Below are positions 114-40,050 of a stretch of 64,000 nucleotides of DNA, piece after piece (the first letter of the stretch is position 1; the number at the start of each line of letters is the position of its first letter). A program made the position numbers and the translations under genes. The stretch comes from Albugo candida (taxonomy: Eukaryota): positions 558,001 through 622,000 of the forward strand of contig JBDOQK010000006.1 in NCBI GenBank assembly GCA_040437565.1, in the 5' to 3' direction. A model generated the notes under the pieces. It was not told the DNA's origin. It saw nothing but the letters and a program-made list of their open reading frames with translations, and ran no database searches.

Positions 114-2594
114 ATGTTGCATCCATTCTGGCCAAATTCGATTAGACGTCACTTATCTACAAACAATTCTGCGGCATTTACAAATGTATCTGCTAGTGAA
201 GCTGGTATAGCTGCTCGAAAAGAAGGGCTCCGATATCTTACAGAAAAGTTTCATGTTTTGCAAATATTTCTGCTTGCAGGATATGGTATTATGTTCACGC
301 TTTGTGTGATTTTGATCTGCTACATGCGATACAATCGAAGTGTAGCATTTCGAGGTGATGTCAGTGCCGCACGGAAGATCATTCTTCCATGCTTTGAGCC
401 TCTGTTATGGATTCTAGGCGGTGCGACCGGTGTATACACAGTCTACTTTTGCATCGCCTTGGCACAAAACATCTATACAAATGATATAGCAAAAGTCCCG
501 ACCGAAGTGTTTTACTCTGGTCGCCAATCGGTATTTCTTTCTGTCATAGTATTCATGCTTCAGAAAAGTGTATCTATACCAGCTCTGCAGCGCACAGTTA
601 TCATCACGTTTATTTTGTCCACGTATACCATCCTGGTCGTATGGTTTATGGTGTATCGTAGCGATGGGAATCAGCTGTATTGGGCAACGACAGTCTCACG
701 GGCATTGTTGCTAGTGCTCTACACGTATGTGTTTATCAATCCTCCACAAAGAGCAAGTAAGCGAACCATTCGAGAATTTTGCTTATACGCATACGTATAT
801 TATGCGCTTCTGTTCCTTTATGGCCATTTGTTTTATCTGAAAAAGCTGTTTTGGGGTTTTACCTTAACATATTGTAATTTATTATGGGGATCATTGTGCC
901 CGCTTGTGATCTGGCGTGTTCTGAAAGCAGACACAGAGTATTGGAGAGGGATGGGCCAACGAGCTTGTGCACTACAGTCTCTATTTCGACAAAAAAACAA
1001 CATTCATGAGCTTATATCCTCACAGGGCTTGCACGTGTTGATCGAAATGCATCGGAAATTTATCATTGATTTTGCTTATTTGGAAATGAAACAACGGATC
1101 GGAATTGGTGCAAGCGCGGTGGTGTTTAATGGAATTCTGCATTCAAAAATTCCTGTTGCGATAAAAGTGTATACACCATCAGAATTTACAGAGGATACTG
1201 TTGCCCAATATTCTCACGAAGCCGCTCTTTGCGGCGCCTTGCATCATCCAAACATTGTCAAGTTCTACGGAATGTGTGTCTGCCCGCCAACGATTTGTCT
1301 TGTATCGGAATTATGTCAGGGCAGTCTTGAAGACGTAACTAGTGCCATTGCAAAAGGTCAACAGAAGGATCAACGACAGCAGTTTCTGATTGATCTTGGA
1401 TATATACTCGATGCTACAAGAGCAGTAGCGTATCTTCATAGCTTCTCGCCTCCATTTGTACATCGAGACATCAAACCAGCAAATTTTCTAGTAGACGCAG
1501 AATGTACAGTGAAACTCACTGATTTCGGTGAATCGAGAAGTCTTCCACGAAGTCAGATCAATAAGCAAAATGGTTCTTTGCTGAGCACACAGCCGGACAA
1601 TTCTACTTATAATGGGGCTTCCTTCCAATCTGTGACGGATCAGCGCTTCACAGATTCCGGAATGAAGCCTCATCGAGCAGCTATGACAGTCCGAGGTACC
1701 GTTGACTATATGGCACCAGAAGTGATCAATGGAAAAGCGGGTTTGGCCACTTATGGCGAAGCAGCCGACGTATATTCGCTAGCCATAACTATCTGGGATA
1801 TACTATGCCCAAACAGCGAGAAATATCCTCGCGTCAATTGCAATAATCACATGCAGATTTTCCAACTGGTTGTGGATGGTAAACGACCCATACTACCTTC
1901 TGATATGCACCCATCCTTAAGCGAGCTACTTCAAAGTGCGTGGCATCCGGATGCCAACATGCGGCCCTCAGCAGTCAAAATCGTTCGTATTTTAGAGAGC
2001 ATACAGGAGGAAGTACTAGCTGATTTTTCCTCACAGATTGTTTCAAAAATCGAACAGAATGTCGGAACAAAAGCTGTCAATCATTCATCGCGGAAATGCT
2101 TTACTGGGTACCACGCTAGTGAACAACTTGTCGAATCCGGTTGTGTGGACGGAATTGGCGAAGCATTACGACTCGGAAATGCGTTTATGGACGCAGGACT
2201 CATTCACCACGTGAAACACAGCAGAGCTTTCGAATACTCAGATGCGACTTATTTTTTTGACGATACAAACATCCACTTGTGTCAGCCTATCACAGCGTCC
2301 AAAGTGAGCAGCAAGGGAAGCACCCGGCATTTGGCGTCAGTAAATGGCAATACGATATGCAGTCAATCGGACCATCATTCACATACAATGAGTTTCCATT
2401 CAGATCAAGACTTGGACGGAATGTGTGAATGTCGAAAACTTGGACAAAAATTAGAGCCTGTCAAGGTCTCCCGCCGACGATTTCGTAAAAAATTAAAAGC
2501 GGTTTACGAGGAAAATATGCTGACGACTCGACTTCTTGCTAATGAAACCAGCGACTTTGACGACTTTGATCTATCCGCGCCACCATGTGCTTGA
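114..2594 (+). CDS. 7TM (GPCR-like) - TKL protein kinase - DEP domain protein
   Basis: 826-aa ORF with seven hydrophobic segments ending at ADTEYWRG; kinase motifs GIGASAVV, VAIK, HRDIKPAN, DFG, GTVDYMAPE; C-terminal DEP-like CFTG...EALRLGNAFMDAGLIHHV...F...YFF. Confidence 0.9.
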   Translation: MLHPFWPNSIRRHLSTNNSAAFTNVSASEAGIAARKEGLRYLTEKFHVLQIFLLAGYGIMFTLCVILICYMRYNRSVAFRGDVSAARKIILPCFEPLLWILGGATGVYTVYFCIALAQNIYTNDIAKVPTEVFYSGRQSVFLSVIVFMLQKSVSIPALQRTVIITFILSTYTILVVWFMVYRSDGNQLYWATTVSRALLLVLYTYVFINPPQRASKRTIREFCLYAYVYYALLFLYGHLFYLKKLFWGFTLTYCNLLWGSLCPLVIWRVLKADTEYWRGMGQRACALQSLFRQKNNIHELISSQGLHVLIEMHRKFIIDFAYLEMKQRIGIGASAVVFNGILHSKIPVAIKVYTPSEFTEDTVAQYSHEAALCGALHHPNIVKFYGMCVCPPTICLVSELCQGSLEDVTSAIAKGQQKDQRQQFLIDLGYILDATRAVAYLHSFSPPFVHRDIKPANFLVDAECTVKLTDFGESRSLPRSQINKQNGSLLSTQPDNSTYNGASFQSVTDQRFTDSGMKPHRAAMTVRGTVDYMAPEVINGKAGLATYGEAADVYSLAITIWDILCPNSEKYPRVNCNNHMQIFQLVVDGKRPILPSDMHPSLSELLQSAWHPDANMRPSAVKIVRILESIQEEVLADFSSQIVSKIEQNVGTKAVNHSSRKCFTGYHASEQLVESGCVDGIGEALRLGNAFMDAGLIHHVKHSRAFEYSDATYFFDDTNIHLCQPITASKVSSKGSTRHLASVNGNTICSQSDHHSHTMSFHSDQDLDGMCECRKLGQKLEPVKVSRRRFRKKLKAVYEENMLTTRLLANETSDFDDFDLSAPPCA

Positions 2595-30873: not shown

Positions 30874-33022
30874 CTACTCATTGTCTGTTTCCTCTAGCAA
30901 GACAAATGTGGTATTTACACCATGTTGTTCATTATCAAATGTTTCGTCGTATGTCGGATTCCCACATTCGTAGTGTTTCATCAATCTGGGCGAAACTGCC
31001 AACAGGATCAAAAAACACAACAGCGCTAGAGCCAGTTGGTCGACTCTAGTGAACGTTCCAGAAGAGATTATTCGTGATACGATAGTTCGAAATGTTGCCG
31101 GTGACTGGGAGGCCATTTTGATCATCGAGGATTTCGTGACTGATATTTGTGAGCAATTTGCTGGTGCAATACCAATTTGCCGATTTTCCAGATCATAAAC
31201 AATGTTGTGATCAATCAGTACACTAGCTCCTAATATCGTTGCTCCTACTTGCGCGGTAAATGAAATTGTTCCTTCGTATCGGTTGACTCCAGCTGCGATA
31301 TAATACTGCAAGGCTTTCATGCATATTGTCGCACCGCCTTCGAAATGAAAGCATATCCGTGGTAGCGTGTCAAGCCCTTGTTTTACTGCCGGGAAATGCA
31401 TTATTGTACGAAATAAAGGTGGAAATGTTGCTCCACCTTTATTTCGTACAATAATGCATTTCCCGGCAGTAAAACAAGGGCTTGNNNNNNNNNNNNNNNN
31501 NNNNNNNNNNNNNNNNNNNNNNNNNNNNNNNNNNNNNNNNNNNNNNNNNNNNNNNNNNNNNNNNNNNNNNNNNNNNNNNNNNNNCTCTAGTGAACGTTCC
31601 AGAAGAGATTATTCGTGATACGATAGTTCGAAATGTTGCCGGTGACTGGGAGGCCATTTTGATCATCGAGGATTTCGTGACTGATATTTGTGAGCAATTT
31701 GCTGGTGCAATACCAATTTGCCGATTTTCCAGATCATAAACAATGTTGTGATCAATCAGTACACTAGCTCCTAATATCGTTGCTCCTACTTGCGCGGTAA
31801 ATGAAATTGTTCCTTCGTATCGGTTGACTCCAGCTGCGATATAATACTGCAAGGCTTTCATGCATATTGTCGCACCGCCTTCGAAATGAAAGCATATCCG
31901 TGGTAGCGTGTCAAGCCCTTGTTTTACTGCCGGGAAATGCATTATTGTACGAAATAAAGGTGGAGCAACATTTCCACCTGTAGCTTCTTCCCACGCTTGA
32001 AGAAAGGCTGATTTGACCTTCATTGGGAGATACAAAAACGTCGTTCCACTGTCAAAGACGCAGCCTCGTCCCTGATTGTAGTCGCTAGACTCGACATGCA
32101 ATGGAACGTGATCTATTTCAACGGACTTTAAATTCACAACCCAGTACTGATAAGTACTTTTCATTAGTGGAGTGTACATAATCTTGGGCTGGTTTATCAA
32201 ATCTTCAACCCCTCCCAGCACCAATTTGCCACCGTCAGTTGCGAGACACTGACTGAATACACGTTGTTTTAGTACCTTCTCACGATAGAGCTGCTCCAAA
32301 ATGGAGTCTTTATGTATTGATAAACCCATGATACCGTCTGCGGATTGCTGCATGAAAACGCCAGATTGGCGAAAGATGCACCCAAATTCAATGTTGCCTC
32401 CAAAGGCTTTCGTCTTCCCGAAAGAAATATAATCTTCTACCTTGTAAGCCTCCCACATATCGCCTTCTACGTATATCTGACCATATTTACATTTTTTGTC
32501 GACACACTCGTCGCAGTTGTCCCACACATCGAGAAAATTTGTAACGGAATCGCAGTGTACAAAATGGCCATGACTGGTTGACTTTTCTAAACGGTAAGGC
32601 GGATTCTTATGATGTTGTCCACACGCAGTACATTGATCACATAGGAAAGCTGTTCTACCACTTCCTGTGTCGATGATCAGTTCTCGTCTTTGACCCCCGA
32701 CATCTACCTCAACAGTATGCGATCCTTCTCCACGGGATACGCTGGTCTCCACATGATTTTCCGTCGAACTGTGCGTATGATTTGTGAATAATCTCTTAAT
32801 GTATCGAATAAATTCTGGTTCTTTAAGTTTCCGTTCAGCGGAACGAGCCAATAGATATTCTGATGTATTTTGTCCGCAAGATGCTTCAGTAATAAGCTCC
32901 AATTCATTCGGTACGGTCATGTGTAATTTTTTCAGTCTCAAGCGCATCAATCCAGGAATCGCTGTGATCTCGCTATAATGCCCAGCGCAGTTTAATATCG
33001 TCAAGTACAATATAGGTTTCAT
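30874..33022 (-). CDS. A1-family aspartic protease with C-terminal TM (plasmepsin V-like)
   Basis: IIDTGSG..AFLCDQCTACGQH and FDSGTT catalytic motifs; hydrophobic N-terminus; C-terminal LALALLCFLILLAV; collapsing the duplication gives one 535-aa frame. Confidence 0.9.
31044..31964. repeat. Exact duplication plus fold-back flanking a gap (probable artifact)
   Basis: 31044-31423 = 31585-31964; hairpin at 31371-31484. Confidence 0.85.
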
Positions 33023-33243
33023 GGCTCGCACATAAGATTTGAAGAGAATTGATGTTACTGTGAATATATGCTGGTGATGAGCGACCTTTAACAGCAACAA
33101 AGTGATGTTTAGCCGATCGATAACGCTTGTATATATATATACCATTCTTTGGATCAAGAAGATTACATTTTTTTGATAGTAAAAGCAAGATTATGTGTGT
33201 TCTCTGTGATAAACATATAAAGTACGATACTCGAGGTCTGGAA

Positions 33244-34184
33244 ATGGCTACTTCTGAAATGCCGTCACATATCATAGACCATGTTTATGTTGGGTCTCGC
33301 CAACATGCACGAGGGTATGACATACTGAAACAACTTAAGATCACACATATACTCAATGTGAGTCAATACGAGAGCTGTGATCTTTCTTACAGCTTTTCTC
33401 TTCCAAAGTATAGGTAACTCCATCGCGAGATACAGATCCTATTTCCGGAGTCCCGAACTTTTTTGAGAAAAAGAAGCTGTTCATGTGAGTTTCTGTCAAC
33501 TAGGTGCACCGTGTTGAAATAGTGAACCTCTGTATGACTCAGATATCGCCGGTGCGCAATATTTGACAGCAAATCAGAGGATTTGGGTCCGATTATCGAA
33601 AGCTCCGTGGATTTCATCGAAACCGCGAAACATTACGGTAAAGTTCTTTGACTTTCTTGTCTGGTAGCATATTTACCGAAATTGTAGCAAACTATTGTGC
33701 TGGCTCATACAGGGCGGATACTTGTGCACTGCAACAAAGGCATCAGTCGTTCGGTATCGTTGGTGGTAGCTTACATTCTAAAGTATCACCATCTAAGTTA
33801 CGACGAAGCACTCGCTCTAGTGAAAAAGAAAAGACCAGTTGTAAGCTTTTATGGAACAATTTCTATTCGAATTCTGGTGATTCCAATTGTGTTTGATATG
33901 CGAAGTAGGCAAGTCCCAACACTACCTTTCTTCATCAATTGCAGGCATATGCGCGAAAGCAAAATTGTCAGAAGATACCAACTACATCAGAAGTGGAGAA
34001 AGACGAACAAAGCTCACTTATAGGACCTTCGATGCGATATGCAGTCGAAACATTGATAGGGCCAAAACTACCAAAAGATATGCGAAGTACAGAATCACGA
34101 GCATGCGAGACAAACCGTGTTGAATCTGCTGAATCCAATTCAAGTCAGGAGCCACGAATCCATAAGAAGCGTAAGGTAGACTAA
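33244..34184 (+). CDS. Dual-specificity protein phosphatase
   Basis: IIDHVYVGS..A....LKQLKITHILNV and ILVHCNKGISRS (HCx5R); multi-exon; basic C-terminus HKKRKVD. Confidence 0.88.
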
Positions 34185-34243
34185 TACTGAGAACTGTTGG
34201 CATTAGCTAAGAATGAAAGAGAATAGCTGATAGTATTACGAGT

Positions 34244-36979
34244 TCATGCAAGCATCATTGTATGTTCCTGATACGAGAAATCCTCAAAATGATGACCGTC
34301 ACCTTGTTTACCCTTGACTGGCGAATCCACAGCTAGCATACTCTGAAACATCTCTGGAACATTCGTGACGTCGTCTATACTTGAAACCTCTGGTACAAAT
34401 GGTGGTGTATACTCTTTTCGTAATACCTTTTCCCAGTCAAGTGGCTCAAAAAAAGCATGATCCATGATATCTTGACCTCCCCTTCGGCCAGATCCTAGTC
34501 GTTTAGATGGATCACGATTGAGCAATTTCAAGATTAGAGATCGAGCTGACGGCGAGACATACGATGGATAGACGATTTCTGCTTGCATTATATTCTTGAA
34601 CATTTGCCGTCGGTTCCGATCCACAAACGGTGTCTTTCCGGTCAACATTTCGAATAATAGTATTCCATAGCTCCACCAATCAACAACTTTTCCGTATGGA
34701 TGATGTCGTAACAGCTCTGGCGCCATGTATTCCGCGGTTCCACATATCGTTTTCATAGCCAAATCAGCTTGGGATGCTCGTATGTCTCCATTGATTGTCT
34801 GACCTTCTTTAGAGAGACCAAAATCAGTCAATGCGATGTTCCCCTGCTGGTCGATTAAAATGTTCTCCAGTTTCAAGTCCCTGTATGCGATTTGCTTTTC
34901 ATGCAGATGCATGAGAGCGAGCAGGAGTTGGGCCATATACATACGTGCACGTTCCTCGCTGAACCTTTTGCTTTTTCGCAAGTGATAAAACATGGAGCCA
35001 CCTGGATAATAATCCATGATGAGATATAACTTTTCCGAATTCTGAAATGCATAACGGAGACGAACAATAAATGGATGATCGATCTCTTTCAGTATATGTT
35101 GTTCTGCTCGAGTGTTTTCAATCTGCCCATTTTTTACAATGTGTGATTTGACTAAAATTTTCATGGCGAAGATGTCACCCCTACTTTTTCCTTCCTTCTT
35201 TTTCACTAGTAATACCTTGCCAAATGCACCACGACCAACAACCTTGAGGAGTTCAAAGTCTTCTATAGTCATCGGTTTTTTCTCCGCCTCTTTCGCCAAT
35301 TCACGTTGACGCATTACCGCTAGTCTCTCACTCATATTCTTCATTTCATCCGCATATTGATCGTGACGGTGTGCATACAGACTTCCTGCTAATCCTAGTG
35401 CCAGTGAGTCCGAGCTCATTCCTTGACTCCTGTAGCATGCTACTTTATTTTGCAACATCGTATTGAGATCACAGCACCCTAGACACACACGTTTCGCTTC
35501 ACTAAAACCAGGAAAGAAAAGTCGCTCCGAGCAGGAAGCACAAACAACGCGTAAGCACATCCGGCAGTAGCGCTTCCGATGTAGGACAAAGCTTTTTTGG
35601 CATAAGTAACAGCAATTATTGGAAGCATCGGTGGGGAGGGTACCCATGGAATCAAGTGATGCATTACCCAAACCTTGTCCTCCTGAGCTTGAGGGAGATG
35701 AATCGTTATATGCTGTGCGATTTTGTGATCGAATCAAGTTATCAGACCGTGCCACAAATGTGTCATGAATCCACTCCAAAGTTAATTCTACTTCCCCGTT
35801 TCCTCGTGATTGAGCATCCTTTCCATGTCGTAAGGCATACCATCTTCGATCCGCGCGATTTAGCCCAATCTCATTCATTTTGATACTTACATATCCCAAA
35901 TTTGTGCTACCAAGCGGAAACATTTTATCTTTGATAGAAATCGTAATAATCTCGTCAGCATTTCCAACTGGGAACGAAAAAGATTGGTTCCATTCCGGGT
36001 CCATGGTATATTTGTGGTTTCCGACAGTCTCTTTTTTCTGTCCTACACATTGCACGACTGCGAAAGGATTGTTGTACGGTTGCCCTGTAAGCCTGGCGCG
36101 ATTTACTGTAACCACAACTTTATTTGGTAACGTGGCACGTATGGCATCAATGGCCTCATTCATTCCTAATGTAACTGCTTGAAAGAAAACAAATGTAGAA
36201 GTCTGTACTGAGTGCAGCGTCCAGTCTCGATTGGAAATATCCCCCGACGAACGACCAACTGATAGTGAGGTACATCCTAACTGGCTCCGTGATGCAGCAA
36301 TTTCTGAAAATGTTGGTTCATCCGAAGCCTCAAAATTGACACTACGTGTGCTTAGAATTTTCCGCGTGTGTGCAGAATCTGTCGGCGAAATAGTGTGTGA
36401 GGATTCGACAAAAACAATTCCAGCAACTCGAGTCGAATCCCTCTTGGATAGATTATTTAGCAATGTCTTCAGTAGAGCCCCAGCGTTGTCGTACGCGACA
36501 AAGTTGATTTCTTTTGCTGCATTTGGCATGATGTATTGCTTCCATACATACATAACATGATCTTGAGGTGTACTGGCATGTAAGATTTTCGTTCGATGTC
36601 CATGCACTATCGCCGTGTTTGTACTTGGATTCATGATGACAACTGCAAATCCACTCTGTGTCGCAGTCTTGAGGTAAGGTATCATCGAGCTTTGAAAACC
36701 GTTTTTTGCATTGATGATTTTACTCCATATGCCTGGCTTTATTCCGGGACCTGCCTGCAAAAATATGCACAGTTTTGTGCAAGTTGCGTAATTATGCGAC
36801 ACGAAAATGTTGGCTTTTGCTTCCGCTCGAGAATTTGGAATGAATATCTCACGAAGTAGTAACTCGTTTTTCATTTTTGATTGTATTTGACCTATAAGAG
36901 ACTGAACAAGTTCCTCTAGTTCATCTTCATTACGACTAGAGAAAGCTCTGTTAGCATCGCTCGAAGTTGCGCCTCGCAT
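34244..36979 (-). CDS. AGC kinase (Akt/SGK/S6K-like) with ARB2/FAM172A-like, C2 and FYVE domains
   Basis: 911-aa ORF; kinase motifs GRGAFGKV, YRDLKLEN, DFGLSK, TICGTAEY, FEDFSY; C2 (KETV...MDPEWNQSFSF); 8-Cys FYVE-like finger; N-terminal ARB2-like motifs. Confidence 0.9.
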   Translation of the reverse strand: MRGATSSDANRAFSSRNEDELEELVQSLIGQIQSKMKNELLLREIFIPNSRAEAKANIFVSHNYATCTKLCIFLQAGPGIKPGIWSKIINAKNGFQSSMIPYLKTATQSGFAVVIMNPSTNTAIVHGHRTKILHASTPQDHVMYVWKQYIMPNAAKEINFVAYDNAGALLKTLLNNLSKRDSTRVAGIVFVESSHTISPTDSAHTRKILSTRSVNFEASDEPTFSEIAASRSQLGCTSLSVGRSSGDISNRDWTLHSVQTSTFVFFQAVTLGMNEAIDAIRATLPNKVVVTVNRARLTGQPYNNPFAVVQCVGQKKETVGNHKYTMDPEWNQSFSFPVGNADEIITISIKDKMFPLGSTNLGYVSIKMNEIGLNRADRRWYALRHGKDAQSRGNGEVELTLEWIHDTFVARSDNLIRSQNRTAYNDSSPSSSGGQGLGNASLDSMGTLPTDASNNCCYLCQKSFVLHRKRYCRMCLRVVCASCSERLFFPGFSEAKRVCLGCCDLNTMLQNKVACYRSQGMSSDSLALGLAGSLYAHRHDQYADEMKNMSERLAVMRQRELAKEAEKKPMTIEDFELLKVVGRGAFGKVLLVKKKEGKSRGDIFAMKILVKSHIVKNGQIENTRAEQHILKEIDHPFIVRLRYAFQNSEKLYLIMDYYPGGSMFYHLRKSKRFSEERARMYMAQLLLALMHLHEKQIAYRDLKLENILIDQQGNIALTDFGLSKEGQTINGDIRASQADLAMKTICGTAEYMAPELLRHHPYGKVVDWWSYGILLFEMLTGKTPFVDRNRRQMFKNIMQAEIVYPSYVSPSARSLILKLLNRDPSKRLGSGRRGGQDIMDHAFFEPLDWEKVLRKEYTPPFVPEVSSIDDVTNVPEMFQSMLAVDSPVKGKQGDGHHFEDFSYQEHTMMLA

Positions 36980-37391
36980 CTGTATGAGTCACGTTGATCC
37001 TCGCGATGCAACTAGTCTTTTTAGTGAAGAGACGTTTCTAACATCTCAACAATGAGAGGATTATCAATAGACGAAATGCGTTTGATCGCATAAAATTACG
37101 TCTCTGGTAATCCAGGAAGACTGCTTTATCAGCCGTCAATACTAAAATGTATACTACTCAACAACGCTGACTCGTCAAATTGGTAATGCAGCGCCTGTAC
37201 TAGGTAGAAAAAAGTGCGGTAGAATGACATTATAGCGATCTCCTATCGACGTGCAAAAATGGGGACTTTTGCACGGACTAATATCCACGTCCTTCGAAAA
37301 CCGTCAGCGTTCTATTTTCACACTTGTTGAGATAAAGAGACGCGTAGAACATTCGGCAGACTTGTACATCCATAAAAATCTTTTGAATGAA

Positions 37392-38926
37392 ATGTCGTAC
37401 CGGGAACTTCGGAACTTGGCTGAGATGATGAGATCACTAGGATATCCTCGACCGATATCAGTTGAAAACTTCAGAACGCCAAACTTCGAGCTCGTATCAG
37501 ATTTGCTTTACTGGATGGTAAAAAAATATGACCCCTCTTGTAACGTCACGGGCGAAATCGATACTGAAGAAGATCGAGTTGAATTTGTCACACAAGTAAC
37601 TTCTGAGGTCTTGTTCAAGGCTAGAATTCGACTTAATCCAAAAAAACTGTACGCAGCGGATGGATTTGCTGTAAAAGAGCTAATTCGATTGGCTGACACG
37701 CTGTATCGGGCTTCACGTATCTCTACTGTCACACCGCAAGGTGTGTACGATGATGAAGATGAGGTTTCGATAAAAAGTATCGTAGCTTCTCGTGTGAAAG
37801 ATCCCAAAGCAACTCGTCAACTATCTCATGATTTGATGCAAAGTGGAGTGAAGCTGTACGACCTCCTGGAAGCGGAACTAGACATTCGTACCTCCCGCCA
37901 ATCAGCACTTCGCTTCCTGGATGCTTTGGGAAACAATGGCGACAATTCAATCGAAGAAAGGCACCTTGAGAGAAGTGTGAAGGAGATTGTGAATGACACA
38001 CAAAAATCTGTCGAAATTACTGAACGTCAAGTTATTGAGCTAGAAGCAGAGGAAAAAGCATTGACTGCCAAGATAAAGAAGGCACAAGTCGACCTTGAAC
38101 GCAGTGAGAAGCGCTTGAGGAGTCTACAAAATGTACGACCCGCCTTCATGGACGAATATGAAAAGCTAGAGAAGGAACTAGAACGTCAATATGCAGTATG
38201 TTTGGACTTTACCACGGTGATAATGGGGCTCAACTTGTTTATTATGCTCAGATTTATTGTGAGCGATTTCGAAACCTGGACTATTTGCAACGGGAGTTGG
38301 ATCTACATAACGCTCGGGAATTGAAACGGTTGGCAGAGAATGATCGATCGCTGAAGAAGCTACAGAAAAAGTTCCGAGATGACGAGCTTGCCATCTTACG
38401 AGGAGAACAAGAAGACCCATTGGAAAATTCTTTTGCTAATAACAATAATGATGATGATATCGCTAGCACCAAGTCTGTTCGCGCGACCAAAACATCTGCC
38501 AAGTCAAAAGAGAATTTAAGTAATTCTCCAGCGTTATCAACAAAACCAAATCTCGATTCTCGTCAACATCAAGCTGGTCACGATACTCGAATGGGACAGG
38601 CTTTACAAGTAAGAAGTAGAATGAAAGGTCAAGCCAGGCATTCAAGACAACAAGAAAAAGAAAGCGACGAAGATGAAAGTGATTCCGGTGATGATAGCGT
38701 AAGCAGCGGAGATGATGATGATTTAAGCAGTGAGGGTACTGGAGTAGATGATCAACATGATGCACAGTCCGTCTCTACGATTTCGGACTCGGAAGAAGTG
38801 TCATTAGCAGACTCAATTAATTCCCTTGACAAAGATGACGAACTGGGATTCGATGAAGACCAGGATGACTCTGAGTCCGAGCACTCAGGTTCCAGGGTCG
38901 AGTACGATTCGGATCAGAACTTCTGA
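37392..38926 (+). CDS. CLUAP1: Clusterin-associated protein 1 / IFT38
   Basis: MSYRELRNLAEMMRSLGYPRPISVENFRTPNFELV, KKLYAADGFAVKEL, VRPAFMDEYEKLE, RFRNLDYL; intron 38196-38251; acidic tail. Confidence 0.95.
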
Positions 38927-39019
38927 ATATAGCAGTAGTATCATATTTTGTAACGTTTATCACATCATGCATAGTGTGGATTCCCAAGATATCAACAGAG
39001 AAGAGAGCATGTTCTCATT

Positions 39020-40050
39020 CTCTTCTGTCTTCCGTATCATATCTGCTTCGAGTTTTATCTCTGATTCACTGAATGTGATACCAATATGTCGACATTGTCC
39101 TATATTTTCCTAAATCTTCATTTTTGATTGCTCAAAATACTCGGTCAGTCTCCGGGGAGGAAGATTGAGAGCACGTAGTCGTAGACCGTGGCATCCGACA
39201 AACAACATGCAGACTGCTCCATATTGTGCGTACATCATGAAACATACTCAAAGCATTCACTACTGCAAATCTGTCGTACTTAGCAGCTTTATGCAGTCCA
39301 GATGTTTCAATTGAGAGCATTCGCCGGTGCAAAATAGCACTCTCCTTCGCGAATCGCACTGCAAGTCCCGTAAGTCTCCATAGACACTCCTGGATTTTTA
39401 CCGATGGGCTGGATACATCATGAAGCAATTTGGCGAAAAGAGTTAAAATAAGAACTCCTTCATTTCCATAAAGAGCTATACGATCAAGACACTTTGACAG
39501 TAATTGAGGCACAATTTCCATCTAGTTTGGTGGATATCATAACCCATCCAAAAGCACCAAGATAAATGAGGGCGACAAGATGGGTCTGGCTGGGTATGTT
39601 AAAAAACACAGATGCCAATGGGCAAGGCTTGTCTAATTGACTTTGATACCGTATGGTAGTCTCGTCCTTGTCGAGGGAGATGCTAACCGTCTCTCGGCTC
39701 AACGAACACGTGAGCTCAGTCCAGTTACACAATATTAATGCACGCAAGCTGACCGTATCGAGAACACCTGTTGATATGATATGAACTTGGACCACAAAAA
39801 AAGTTACGGAGTTAGCTGCAGTTCTCAATTCGGACTGACTCCTTTGATTATAAATCTTTTTTGTCGATGGTTGCCGGGAGCCAGATATAGACCTGAGACT
39901 GCTTCAAGAAAAATTCGGGCGTGTGCTTTTTTGGTACATAGATCCCGGGCAGGGCGCCATCTTGATTAGCGCAGGAGATATTTCACTCACGCCACTAAGA
40001 GTTAGCTATGTACTTCGGAAAGTAAGATGTATCTATGCGAAAAAAGTAAT
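39020..40050 (-). pseudogene. Decayed copy A of the TFIIIC-1 5' end plus upstream DNA
   Basis: Reverse complement aligns to ~21970-23155; MEIVPQLLSKCLDRIALYGNEGVL, then deletions and frameshifts. Confidence 0.85.

What the first reader, a model, noticed from the sequence alone, without database searches (positions are those of the whole stretch)
34244..36979. ARB2/FAM172A-like domain fused to a C2-FYVE-AGC kinase
Seen: aa ~55-265 read IFVS...KLCIFLQAGPGIKPGIWS..I....SSMIPYLKTATQSGFAVVIMNP...TPQDHVMYVW..YI....INFVAY, followed by C2, FYVE and an intact AGC kinase in one intronless ORF. Known: the first segment parallels FAM172A/Arb2 (IFxS..KLxVLIHGSG..AGQW...QIPFI..A...GYGVIVLNPN), an alpha/beta fold linked to Argonaute complexes and class II HDACs; FYVE-kinase fusions are known in oomycetes. 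Inference: a membrane-recruited kinase with a possible link to small-RNA or chromatin machinery. I know of no characterisation of this four-domain architecture.
Basis: partly seen in the sequence, partly recalled or inferred. Interest (0 to 1): 0.7.

Follow-up and report, generated by a model that had tools for sequence, protein, structure and literature searches.

The report
Known oomycete Arb2-C2-FYVE AGC kinase

Summary
Window 34244-36979 (-) is one 911-aa ORF. Pfam finds Arb2 (E 7.7e-25), C2, FYVE and a protein kinase domain, all above the curated cut-offs. Spliced RNA-like contigs cover the ORF without a joint.

The architecture is not new. The protein is 90% identical to an annotated Albugo laibachii kinase. 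Among the best 120 relatives listed, 19 carry all four domains, from Albugo to Saprolegnia. Judelson & Ah-Fong 2010 list the Phytophthora infestans ortholog PITG_06776 as "ARB2, C2, FYVE". I found no functional study of this clade. A paralog, PsZFPK1, has been knocked out.

New detail:
- The Arb2 domain folds like the Arb2 domains of Clr3 and Hda1 (Z 18.6 and 18.4).
- It has Asp where stand-alone Arb2 proteins have the Ser of VAHSYGG, so it is probably not a serine hydrolase.
- The FYVE finger reads RKRYCR instead of RRHHCR and has no upstream Trp.
- The C2 domain keeps only one of the four aligned calcium-ligand Asp positions of synaptotagmin-7.
- The kinase is Akt/S6K-like and complete.

A link to small RNA or chromatin has no support here.

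The parts
34244..36979 (-). Whole gene: single-exon ORF of 911 aa plus stop codon
   Evidence: ORF list and translation. It is 90% identical over 100% of its length to an A. laibachii protein of 911 aa. RNA-like spliced contigs cover it without a joint.
36137..36937 (-). Arb2 (alpha/beta-hydrolase-like) domain, aa about 15-281
   Evidence: Pfam PF22749, aa 15-223, E 7.7e-25. AlphaFold2 model has pLDDT 90.7. The best structural matches are the Arb2 domains of Clr3 (5ikk, Z 18.6) and Hda1 (5j8j, Z 18.4), with generic hydrolases at Z 14.5 or lower.
36479..36499 (-). Nucleophile-elbow position, VAYDNAG (aa 161-167), with Asp164 in place of the Ser of VAHSYGG
   Evidence: Motif table from the profile alignment. 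In the model this turn lies between strand 157-163 and helix 166-176. Orthologs carry D, E or N here.
36395..36406 (-). ESSH motif (aa 192-195), the counterpart of TDSVH in stand-alone Arb2 proteins
   Evidence: Position 192 is acidic in 120 of 127 ungapped kinase rows. His195 is replaced by Gln in the Saprolegniales orthologs.
35831..36118 (-). C2 domain (aa 288-383), probably calcium-independent
   Evidence: Pfam E 1.5e-9. In the alignment to synaptotagmin-7, SDPF is NNPF here, and only D351 remains of the three Asp of the loop-3 region.
35468..35629 (-). Variant FYVE zinc finger (aa 451-504) with eight Cys
   Evidence: Pfam 30.1 bits against a cut-off of 27.8. phmmer hits RUFY1, Vps27 and EEA1.
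35561..35578 (-). RKRYCR (aa 468-473) in place of the PI3P-binding R(R/K)HHCR motif
   Evidence: Alignments to EEA1, Vps27 and RUFY1. All clade members read R(R/K)(R/K)(Y/H)CR, whereas the paralog clade c2 reads RRHHCR.
34448..35257 (-). AGC protein kinase catalytic domain (aa 575-844)
   Evidence: Pfam E 6.8e-72. The best solved relatives are AKT2 (6.9e-87), AKT1, S6K1 and RSK2. K607, D701, N706, the DFG motif at 719-721 and the APE motif at 753-755 are invariant in 14 orthologs.
34748..34750 (-). T-loop Thr744 (TICGTAEY), the expected PDK1-type activation site
   Evidence: Motif scan. It aligns to the KTFCGTPEY segment of AKT2, after a 9-residue activation-loop insert.
34271..34288 (-). C-terminal hydrophobic motif FEDFSY (aa 898-903), with Ser902
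   Evidence: Motif scan. F898, D900 and F901 are invariant, as is the D885-S886-P887 turn-motif candidate.

Best explanation
This gene is the ortholog, in an Albugo-like genome, of Phytophthora infestans PITG_06776. That protein is a member of an oomycete-wide clade of Akt/S6K-like AGC kinases with a fixed domain order of Arb2, C2, FYVE and kinase.

Shown:
- The four domains and their order.
- Conservation of the architecture across oomycete orders.
- A complete catalytic apparatus, with a T-loop Thr744, a Ser-Pro turn-motif candidate and a hydrophobic motif FEDFSY.
- An Arb2 fold whose nucleophile Ser is replaced by Asp.
- A FYVE finger without the two His of RRHHCR or the WxxD Trp.
- A C2 domain lacking most calcium ligands.

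Inferred:
- The kinase is switched on as other AGC kinases are, by phosphorylation of the T-loop and the hydrophobic motif by PDK1-type and TOR-complex-type kinases.
- C2 and the variant FYVE give weak, calcium-independent attachment to an endomembrane, or bind a protein partner.
- The Arb2 domain is a non-catalytic regulatory or self-association module, as Arb2 domains are in Hda1, Clr3 and FAM172A. Self-association could add avidity to the weak lipid binders or control the kinase.

The overall logic resembles SGK3 (PX plus AGC), Sch9 (C2 plus AGC) and Akt (PH plus AGC).
For: Domains.

Orthology and spread:
- 90% identity to an A. laibachii 'RAC family serine/threonine-protein kinase'.
- 19 of the 120 listed relatives carry Arb2, C2, FYVE and Pkinase together. 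Named sources include Albugo, Pythium, Bremia, Hyaloperonospora, Phytophthora, Saprolegnia, Thraustotheca and Aphanomyces.
- 109 of the 120 carry Arb2 plus Pkinase.

Published catalogue: PITG_06776, AGC/AKT, 883 aa, 'ARB2, C2, FYVE' (main-text passages; Table S1).

Kinase-domain tree: the 14 C2-FYVE rows form one clade with SH-aLRT 100.

Kinase: closest solved relatives are AKT2, AKT1 and S6K1. Catalytic residues are invariant. T744 and FEDFSY are present.

Arb2 domain:
- Model pLDDT 90.7.
- Clr3 and Hda1 Arb2 domains are the top matches by Foldseek and by VIA-align 2, at Z 18.6 and 18.4 against 14.5 or lower for generic hydrolases.
- Stand-alone Arb2 proteins read VAHSYGG / FTDSVHS; ours reads VAYDNAG / FVESSHT.
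- Orthologs have D, E or N at the elbow and Q for His195 in Saprolegniales. That pattern does not fit a conserved catalytic triad.

Other Arb2-kinase fusions carry PH, PX or FYVE modules.

Arb2 homodimerisation is reported for Hda1 (abstract and passages) and for FAM172A (passages).

In the paralog PsZFPK1, the N-terminal region 2-321, the FYVE, the kinase domain and the T-loop Thr are all needed for function (section 3 read).

Transcription: spliced contigs cover the gene.
Against: - No experiment exists for this clade, so the roles of C2, FYVE and Arb2 are inference.
- PsZFPK1-GFP was cytoplasmic, like free GFP, and deleting its FYVE did not change localisation. That argues against strong membrane recruitment in at least one paralog.
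- An acidic residue is conserved at the elbow, and H141 and E192 are almost invariant. The pocket may therefore still do something, such as binding a ligand or carrying out unusual chemistry.
- I could not establish whether PsZFPK1's N-terminal region is an Arb2 domain, because its sequence was not in hand.
- Which kinases act upstream was not examined.
Confidence: 0.72

Rival explanations
1. One reading: the Arb2 domain ties the kinase to Argonaute, small-RNA or chromatin machinery. It would bind Argonaute or histones, so the kinase would phosphorylate nuclear silencing factors.
For: The domain belongs to the Arb2 family by Pfam and by fold. FAM172A binds AGO2 directly (abstract and passages). 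The Hda1 Arb2 dimer binds histones (abstract and passages). Judelson & Ah-Fong describe the domain as chromatin-associated.
Against: In every fused relative seen here the Arb2 domain sits next to lipid-binding modules (C2, FYVE, PH, PX) and an Akt-like kinase, not next to chromatin or RNA domains. According to the passages read, the FAM172A residue important for AGO2 binding lies in its NLS loop. Our model shows no long disordered insert: only residues 81-100 dip, to pLDDT 72-80. PsZFPK1-GFP showed no specific nuclear localisation beyond that of free GFP.
Confidence: 0.08
2. The Arb2 domain is a working hydrolase with an acidic nucleophile (Asp164, with His195 or His141 and Glu192). The protein would then be a bifunctional hydrolase-kinase.
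For: Asp sits exactly at the strand-turn-helix elbow. H141 is kept in 125 of 126 ungapped kinase-linked rows, and position 192 is acidic in 120 of 127. From my own knowledge, some alpha/beta hydrolases use an Asp nucleophile; a haloalkane dehalogenase, LinB (1iz7), is among the structural matches.
Against: The elbow residue is Glu in four kinase-linked rows and Asn in one. The small residues around the elbow are degraded (A-Y-D-N-A-G against H-S-Y-G-G). His195 is Gln in the Saprolegniales orthologs. The largest group of kinase-linked Arb2 domains has Gly at the elbow (77 of 135 rows) yet keeps H141 and E192, so those residues are conserved without catalysis. The solved Arb2 domains are described as lacking a triad (passage).
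Confidence: 0.07
3. The four-domain protein is an artefact: two or more neighbouring genes read through as one ORF, or a pseudogene.
For: None beyond the general risk. Some database relatives are clearly mis-modelled, for example P0008 with an added deaminase domain and several truncated models.
Against: It is one uninterrupted ORF. Orthologs have the same length and domain order in at least ten named oomycete species. Catalytic residues are invariant. RNA-like contigs are continuous across it while introns are removed in both neighbouring genes.
Confidence: 0.01

Closest known systems
Phytophthora infestans PITG_06776 (AGC/AKT; Judelson & Ah-Fong 2010, PMC3019232)
   Same: Ortholog. It has the same domain order, 'ARB2, C2, FYVE' plus an AGC kinase, is 883 aa long, and the sequence printed in Table S1 closely parallels the Phytophthora-type orthologs aligned.
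   Different: It comes from a different genus. It is catalogued only, with no functional data. The 2010 text says no other kinase bears Arb2 and that diatoms lack an ortholog. Here Arb2-kinase fusions also appear in Triparma, Pinguiococcus, Ochromonas, Nannochloropsis and Aureoumbra.
Phytophthora sojae PsZFPK1 (Ru et al. 2023, PMC10381902)
   Same: An oomycete AGC kinase with a non-canonical FYVE finger and a long N-terminal region. The T-loop Thr, the FYVE, the kinase domain and the N-terminal region are all needed for growth, oospore formation and virulence.
   Different: It is a different clade. Its FYVE motif is RRIPCS, its hydrophobic-motif site is Ala, and no C2 or Arb2 is mentioned. Our ortholog should be one of the uncharacterised PsZFPK2-5, but Figure 1 is not held, so I cannot say which.
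Arb2 domains of S. pombe Clr3 (5ikk) and S. cerevisiae Hda1 (5j8j)
   Same: They are the best structural matches: Z 18.6 and 18.4, with 223 and 214 aligned residues. They are non-catalytic alpha/beta-hydrolase-like domains that dimerise.
   Different: Sequence identity is only 12-13%. They are C-terminal to a histone deacetylase, not N-terminal to a kinase. Histone binding is untested here.
FAM172A-type stand-alone Arb2 proteins
   Same: They match the same Pfam family. They share the KLxV..G..PG.WS, GYG..V.NPN, S.SPE.H and (D/E)S.H motifs.
   Different: Stand-alone representatives keep VAHSYGG with Ser at the elbow (80 of 133 ungapped non-kinase rows). Ours has Asp. The representatives are unnamed, so the label 'FAM172A-type' is my inference. 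No AGO2-binding loop was identified here.
SGK3 (PX-AGC), yeast Sch9 (C2-AGC), Akt (PH-AGC)
   Same: It works like them: an Akt/S6K-type catalytic domain with a T-loop and a hydrophobic motif, preceded by lipid-binding modules. That Sch9 is targeted to vacuolar PI(3,5)P2 and phosphorylated by TORC1 comes from the abstract listed. The rest is from my own knowledge.
   Different: No Arb2 domain in any of them, from my own knowledge. The lipid specificity of our C2 and FYVE is unknown.

Membership tests
Arb2 domain (Pfam PF22749) | Profile score above the curated gathering cut-off | tested here: met
   88.2 bits against a cut-off of 26.8, E 7.7e-25, aa 15-223, profile positions 33-260. The first 32 profile positions are absent in this clade.
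Arb2 domain (Pfam PF22749) | Alpha/beta fold closest to the solved Arb2 domains | tested here: met
   Foldseek top hits are 5ikk (E 3.3e-8) and 5j8j. VIA-align 2 gives Z 18.6 and 18.4, against 14.5 or lower for other hydrolases.
FAM172A-type Arb2 with serine-hydrolase-like motif | H-S-x-G-G nucleophile elbow with Ser | tested here: not met
   Ours reads VAYDNAG (Asp164). Stand-alone representatives read VAHSYGG.
FAM172A-type Arb2 with serine-hydrolase-like motif | Binding to Argonaute | not testable with these tools
   Needs co-immunoprecipitation or pull-down.
Arb2 domain as dimerisation module (Hda1, Clr3, FAM172A) | Homodimer through the arm region | not tested
No homodimer prediction was run.
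C2 domain (PF00168) | Profile score above cut-off | tested here: met
   38.5 bits against a cut-off of 22, E 1.5e-9. phmmer hits solved C2 domains.
Calcium-dependent C2 (synaptotagmin / classical PKC type) | Asp calcium ligands in loops 1 and 3 | tested here: not met
   In the synaptotagmin-7 alignment SDPF becomes NNPF, and of the D.D....D stretch only D351 remains, so 1 of 4 aligned Asp is kept. Which Asp are calcium ligands is from my own knowledge.
FYVE zinc finger (PF01363) | Profile score above cut-off and eight zinc-binding Cys | tested here: met
   30.1 bits against a cut-off of 27.8. Cys pairs at 457/460, 472/475, 480/483 and 499/502. Hits to RUFY1, Vps27 and EEA1.
Canonical PI3P-binding FYVE | R(R/K)HHCR motif | tested here: not met
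   RKRYCR at 468-473, aligned to RRHHCR of EEA1 and RKHHCR of Vps27 and RUFY1. The same variant is found across the clade.
Canonical PI3P-binding FYVE | WxxD motif before the first Cys, and RVC motif | tested here: not met
   There is no Trp in the stretch LDSMGTLPTDASNN before the first Cys, and none in the orthologs. RVC is present at R497-V498-C499. The motif definitions are from my own knowledge and from the passage.
AGC protein kinase, Akt/S6K-like | Complete catalytic residues | tested here: met
   K607, E626, D701, N706, DFG at 719-721 and APE at 753-755 are invariant in 14 orthologs. Pkinase E 6.8e-72.
AGC protein kinase, Akt/S6K-like | T-loop TxCGT motif and C-terminal hydrophobic motif FxxF(S/T)(Y/F) | tested here: met
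   T744 in TICGTAEY and FEDFSY at 898-903. The best solved relatives are AKT2, AKT1, S6K1 and RSK2. The Pkinase_C profile is only weak, at E 0.034.

The most novel reading that the evidence does not exclude
The Arb2 domain is a hydrolase-derived sensor. Its pocket has lost the catalytic Ser but keeps H141, E192 and an acidic residue at the elbow. It would bind a small molecule, a lipid head group or a phospho-peptide and so gate an endomembrane AGC kinase. This would be comparable to the way the alpha/beta-hydrolase fold became a hormone receptor in plant GID1. Arb2-AGC kinases would then be a stramenopile-wide signalling family with a regulatory module not used by any characterised AGC kinase. 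The Ser-retaining FYVE clade (GYSYGG plus RRHHCR) might still be a true hydrolase-kinase.
Probability: 0.12. Interest if true: 0.6.

Novelty: already known. Interest (0 to 1): 0.25.

Why it matters
As a discovery it matters little. The architecture has been in print since 2010 and is in public annotation.

As an open problem it has some value. Arb2-AGC kinases seem confined to stramenopiles: every named source seen here is an oomycete or an ochrophyte alga. They are absent from the hosts of oomycete pathogens as far as this survey goes. One paralog is needed for growth, oospore formation and virulence in P. sojae.

Knowing what the Arb2 module does to the kinase would explain a lineage-specific way of controlling an Akt-like kinase. 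It could also point to oomycete-specific inhibitor targets.

The motif comparison made here (Ser kept in the FYVE-only clade, Gly in the plain clade, Asp/Glu in this clade) gives a concrete starting point for that work.

Tried and rejected
- Complex prediction of the Arb2 domain (aa 15-282) against the kinase domain plus tail (aa 560-911) gave no verdict (score 0.00, controls not run). It says nothing either way.
- The look-up of sequencing runs listed no holder on record as RNA. The RNA nature of X1, X2 and X6 is inferred only from the GT..AG joints seen.
- phmmer of the Arb2 domain alone against PDB sequences found nothing meaningful: one hit at E 0.55 to NDUFA2. The relationship to solved Arb2 domains is visible only by fold.
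- Searching for shorter relatives of the Arb2 part found only 4 fragments or truncated models and no close stand-alone paralog. This search is limited to proteins that share exact words with the query.
- No whole genome is held for this window, so the number of Arb2 proteins in this genome could not be counted. The second Albugo paralog (relatives P0008 and P0012) is not in the window.
- I considered a mis-joined gene model and rejected it (see rivals).
- I could not tell which of PsZFPK2-5 is the ortholog, because figures are not held and I did not open that paper's supplements.
- Taxonomic spread outside stramenopiles was not systematically tested. Most representatives carry no names, and only 10 clusters were looked up.
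Full report
**The observation**

The window carries a single ORF of 911 aa at 34244..36979 on the minus strand.

Pfam-A finds four domains above their curated cut-offs:
- Arb2 PF22749: aa 15-223, E 7.7e-25, 88.2 bits against 26.8.
- C2: aa 288-383, E 1.5e-9.
- FYVE: aa 451-504, E 5.4e-7, 30.1 bits against 27.8.
- Pkinase: aa 575-844, E 6.8e-72.

So the observation, including the Arb2 call made by eye, is correct.

**Gene model and expression**

I laid contigs of four public runs on 33200-39200.
- In X1, X2 and X6, contigs skip short GT..AG segments in both neighbouring genes. Three skips (33357/33414, 33484/33543 and 33840/33909) are seen in all three runs and one more (33636/33687) in X2 only; these lie in the phosphatase gene. 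A further skip at 38195/38252 lies in the Cluap1 gene.
- The same contigs run unbroken from 33909 to 38195.
- X9 carries the unspliced form.

I take the spliced contigs to be RNA-derived. The ORF is therefore in transcribed sequence and has no intron removed.

Caveats: the runs are not on record as RNA. A contig that spans several genes is not a single transcript.

**Which organism and which family**

The best relative is a 911-aa Albugo laibachii Nc14 protein. It is 90% identical over the full length and is named 'RAC family serine/threonine-protein kinase'. The window is therefore most likely from another Albugo species; this is my inference.

Of the 120 relatives listed (out of 1417 with E ≤ 0.001 among 8000 scored candidates):
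- 19 carry Arb2, C2, FYVE and Pkinase together. Named sources are Albugo, Pythium oligandrum, P. insidiosum, a 'Plas…' record (name cut off), Bremia, Hyaloperonospora, Phytophthora cinnamomi, Saprolegnia, Thraustotheca and Aphanomyces.
- 109 carry Arb2 plus Pkinase.
- The other 11 are truncated forms: 5 lack Arb2 and 6 lack the kinase.

Fourteen orthologs align end to end, with mean column identity 57%.

I built a kinase-domain tree of 52 rows. I chose 54 proteins; two were dropped because my pattern for the glycine loop did not match them. The tree puts the 14 C2-FYVE proteins in one clade with SH-aLRT 100. Albugo contributes two lineages, P0001/P0002 and P0008/P0012, joined at support 87, which is below the star threshold.

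**Already in print**

Judelson & Ah-Fong 2010 (PMC3019232; passages read, Table S1 searched):
- Table S1 lists it as AGC/AKT, 883 aa, accessory domains 'ARB2, C2, FYVE'. The sequence printed there is clearly orthologous to ours.
- A second protein, PITG_01365, is listed as 'FYVE, ARB2'.

Ru et al. 2023 (PMC10381902; abstract, section 3 and figure legends read):
- They used PITG_01365 to define five FYVE-AGC kinases in P. sojae, PsZFPK1-5.
- They knocked out PsZFPK1, which has FYVE motif RRIPCS, T-loop T602 and Ala at the hydrophobic-motif site. The knock-out reduced growth, oospore formation and virulence.
- The N-terminal region 2-321, the FYVE and the kinase domain were all required.
- The GFP fusion was cytoplasmic, like free GFP, whichever domains were deleted.
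- They do not mention Arb2 or C2 (0 occurrences).

Our clade reads R(R/K)(R/K)(Y/H)CR, so it is not PsZFPK1. It should be one of PsZFPK2-5.

Searches for 'PITG_06776', 'ZFPK', Arb2 domain/kinase/oomycete, kinome/Phytophthora/FYVE/AGC and FYVE/C2 domain/AGC kinase/oomycete found no functional study of the C2-containing clade in the library searched.

**The Arb2 domain**

I predicted aa 1-285 with AlphaFold2, using 70 relatives as the alignment. The model has mean pLDDT 90.7 and pTM 0.88.
- Foldseek against the PDB ranks Clr3 (5ikk, E 3.3e-8), the Hda1 Arb2 domain (5j8j) and the Hda1 complex entries first, followed by ordinary alpha/beta hydrolases.
- VIA-align 2 gives Z 18.6, 18.4, 17.5 and 17.1 for these four, against 14.5 or lower for the rest.

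I built a profile from the query's columns and aligned all proteins in hand to it, giving 305 domain rows. This is a biased sample: 121 proteins came from the full-length search and 150 from the Arb2 search, and some are fragments.

| Position | Rows with a kinase motif (135) | Rows without (170) |
|---|---|---|
| 164 (elbow) | G 77, S 21, D 19, E 4, A 3, N 1, Q 1, gap 9 | S 80, G 32, D 13, A 6, H 1, N 1, gap 37 |
| H141 kept (ungapped rows) | 125 of 126 | 132 of 134 |
| 192 acidic (ungapped rows) | 120 of 127 | 120 of 127 |
| H195 kept (ungapped rows) | 82 of 123 | 99 of 124 |

The kinase/non-kinase split is by a simple pattern of mine. Several of the D rows without a kinase are truncated models of this same clade.

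- Stand-alone Arb2 proteins typically read VAHSYGG, FTDSVHS and S.SPE.H.
- Our protein reads VAYDNAG (Asp164), FVESSHT and ASTPQDH.
- In the model, Asp164 sits in the turn between strand 157-163 and helix 166-176, which is the nucleophile elbow.
- Within our clade the elbow residue is D, E or N, and His195 is Gln in Saprolegniales.

I read this as a domain that has lost serine-hydrolase chemistry but keeps a conserved pocket.

The FYVE-only paralog clade keeps GYSYGG together with a canonical RRHHCR. This is the more interesting case for catalysis, but it is not this gene.

**How far the fusion spreads**

An exhaustive phmmer search with aa 1-275 found 734 representatives at E ≤ 0.001, 324 at E ≤ 1e-10 and 17 at E ≤ 1e-30.

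I scanned the 150 listed representatives against Pfam: 84 at E ≤ 1e-5 and 66 at E ≤ 1e-8.
- 24 have Arb2 plus Pkinase (17 and 7).
- Five of these have PH domains in front of Arb2 and the kinase (P0154, P0158, P0164, P0198, P0230).
- Other partners are RhoGAP (P0146), FYVE (P0219, P0036) and TPR (P0178).
- Most of the remainder are Arb2-only proteins of about 250-450 aa.

A PX-Arb2-kinase form appears (P0047).

Among the ten clusters I looked up, the named ones are Pythium oligandrum, Aphanomyces, Nannochloropsis oceanica and Aureoumbra lagunensis. One search adds Triparma, Pinguiococcus and Ochromonas. Every named source is a stramenopile. I did not test other lineages systematically.

**C2, FYVE and kinase**

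C2: in the alignment to synaptotagmin-7, SDPF becomes NNPF. Of the D.D....D stretch only D351 is kept. From my own knowledge of C2 calcium ligands, this points to a calcium-independent C2.

FYVE:
- The eight Cys are present.
- In the alignments to EEA1, Vps27 and RUFY1, RRHHCR/RKHHCR corresponds to R468-K469-R470-Y471-C472-R473, and the following Gly is Leu.
- No Trp precedes the first Cys.
- RVC is present.
- Canonical PI3P recognition is therefore doubtful.

Kinase:
- The catalytic domain is closest to AKT2 (E 6.9e-87), AKT1, S6K1 and RSK2.
- The catalytic residues are invariant.
- There is a 9-residue activation-loop insert relative to AKT2.
- It carries T744 in TICGTAEY, an invariant D885-S886-P887, and FEDFSY at 898-903.

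**Mechanism**

What is shown:
- An intact Akt/S6K-like kinase with the usual regulatory phosphosites.
- It is preceded by two degenerate lipid-binding modules and a non-Ser Arb2 domain.
- The whole arrangement is conserved across oomycetes.

What is inferred:
- Activation by PDK1-type and TOR-complex-type kinases.
- Weak, calcium-independent membrane or partner binding through C2 and FYVE.
- A regulatory or self-associating role for Arb2, by analogy with the homodimerising Arb2 domains of Hda1 and Clr3 and FAM172A.

The single complex prediction I ran, Arb2 against the kinase domain, gave no verdict and is not evidence either way.

**Verdict**

The gene is an ordinary ortholog of a catalogued but functionally untested oomycete kinase. 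Interest is low. The residual open question is what a hydrolase-derived domain does for an AGC kinase.

Noticed in passing
window 33200-34023 (+): A dual-specificity phosphatase gene lies immediately downstream of the kinase's stop codon, on the other strand; the ORF piece 33697-34020 matches DSPc at E 1.3e-15. It has four short GT..AG introns (56, 58, 50 and 68 nt) removed in contigs of X1, X2 and X6, with the 50-nt one seen in X2 only.
   Followed up: partly
window 37251-38926 (+): A Cluap1 (clusterin-associated protein 1) gene, Pfam E 2.7e-86. From my own knowledge this is an intraflagellar-transport component. Its two overlapping ORFs (37251-38324 and 38198-38926) are joined in frame by removing a 56-nt GT..AG intron at 38196-38251.
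   Followed up: partly
window 31439-33157 (-): An ORF of the eukaryotic aspartyl protease type (Asp E 1.5e-23, TAXi_N, TAXi_C) is interrupted by a 100-N gap at 31485-31584. The window holds ten such 100-N gaps.
   Followed up: no
proteins P0034-P0046 (paralog clade; e.g. PITG_01365): The Arb2-FYVE-kinase paralogs keep a canonical serine elbow, GYSYGG, together with ESSH and a canonical RRHHCR FYVE motif. They are the best candidates for a catalytically competent Arb2 domain fused to a PI3P-binding kinase.
   Followed up: partly
protein P0008 (A. laibachii, 1140 aa): A second Albugo paralog, 64% identical, carries an N-terminal dCMP/cytidine deaminase domain (PF00383) in its database model. This is probably two neighbouring genes merged, since its close relative P0012 (906 aa) lacks it.
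   Followed up: no
window 35504: All four runs laid read G where the window has A. On the coding strand this is TTT to TTC at Phe492, a synonymous change.
   Followed up: yes
window 1401-1964 (+): tblastn finds a weak second kinase-like stretch, 26-29% identical to the C-lobe of the kinase domain, E about 1e-9. It was not examined further.
   Followed up: no
proteins P0154, P0158, P0164, P0198, P0230: These oomycete proteins of 1160-1480 aa have several PH domains, then Arb2, then an AGC kinase. Pythium oligandrum and Aphanomyces are the named sources. I did not see this third way of combining Arb2-AGC with lipid-binding modules described in the papers read.
   Followed up: partly
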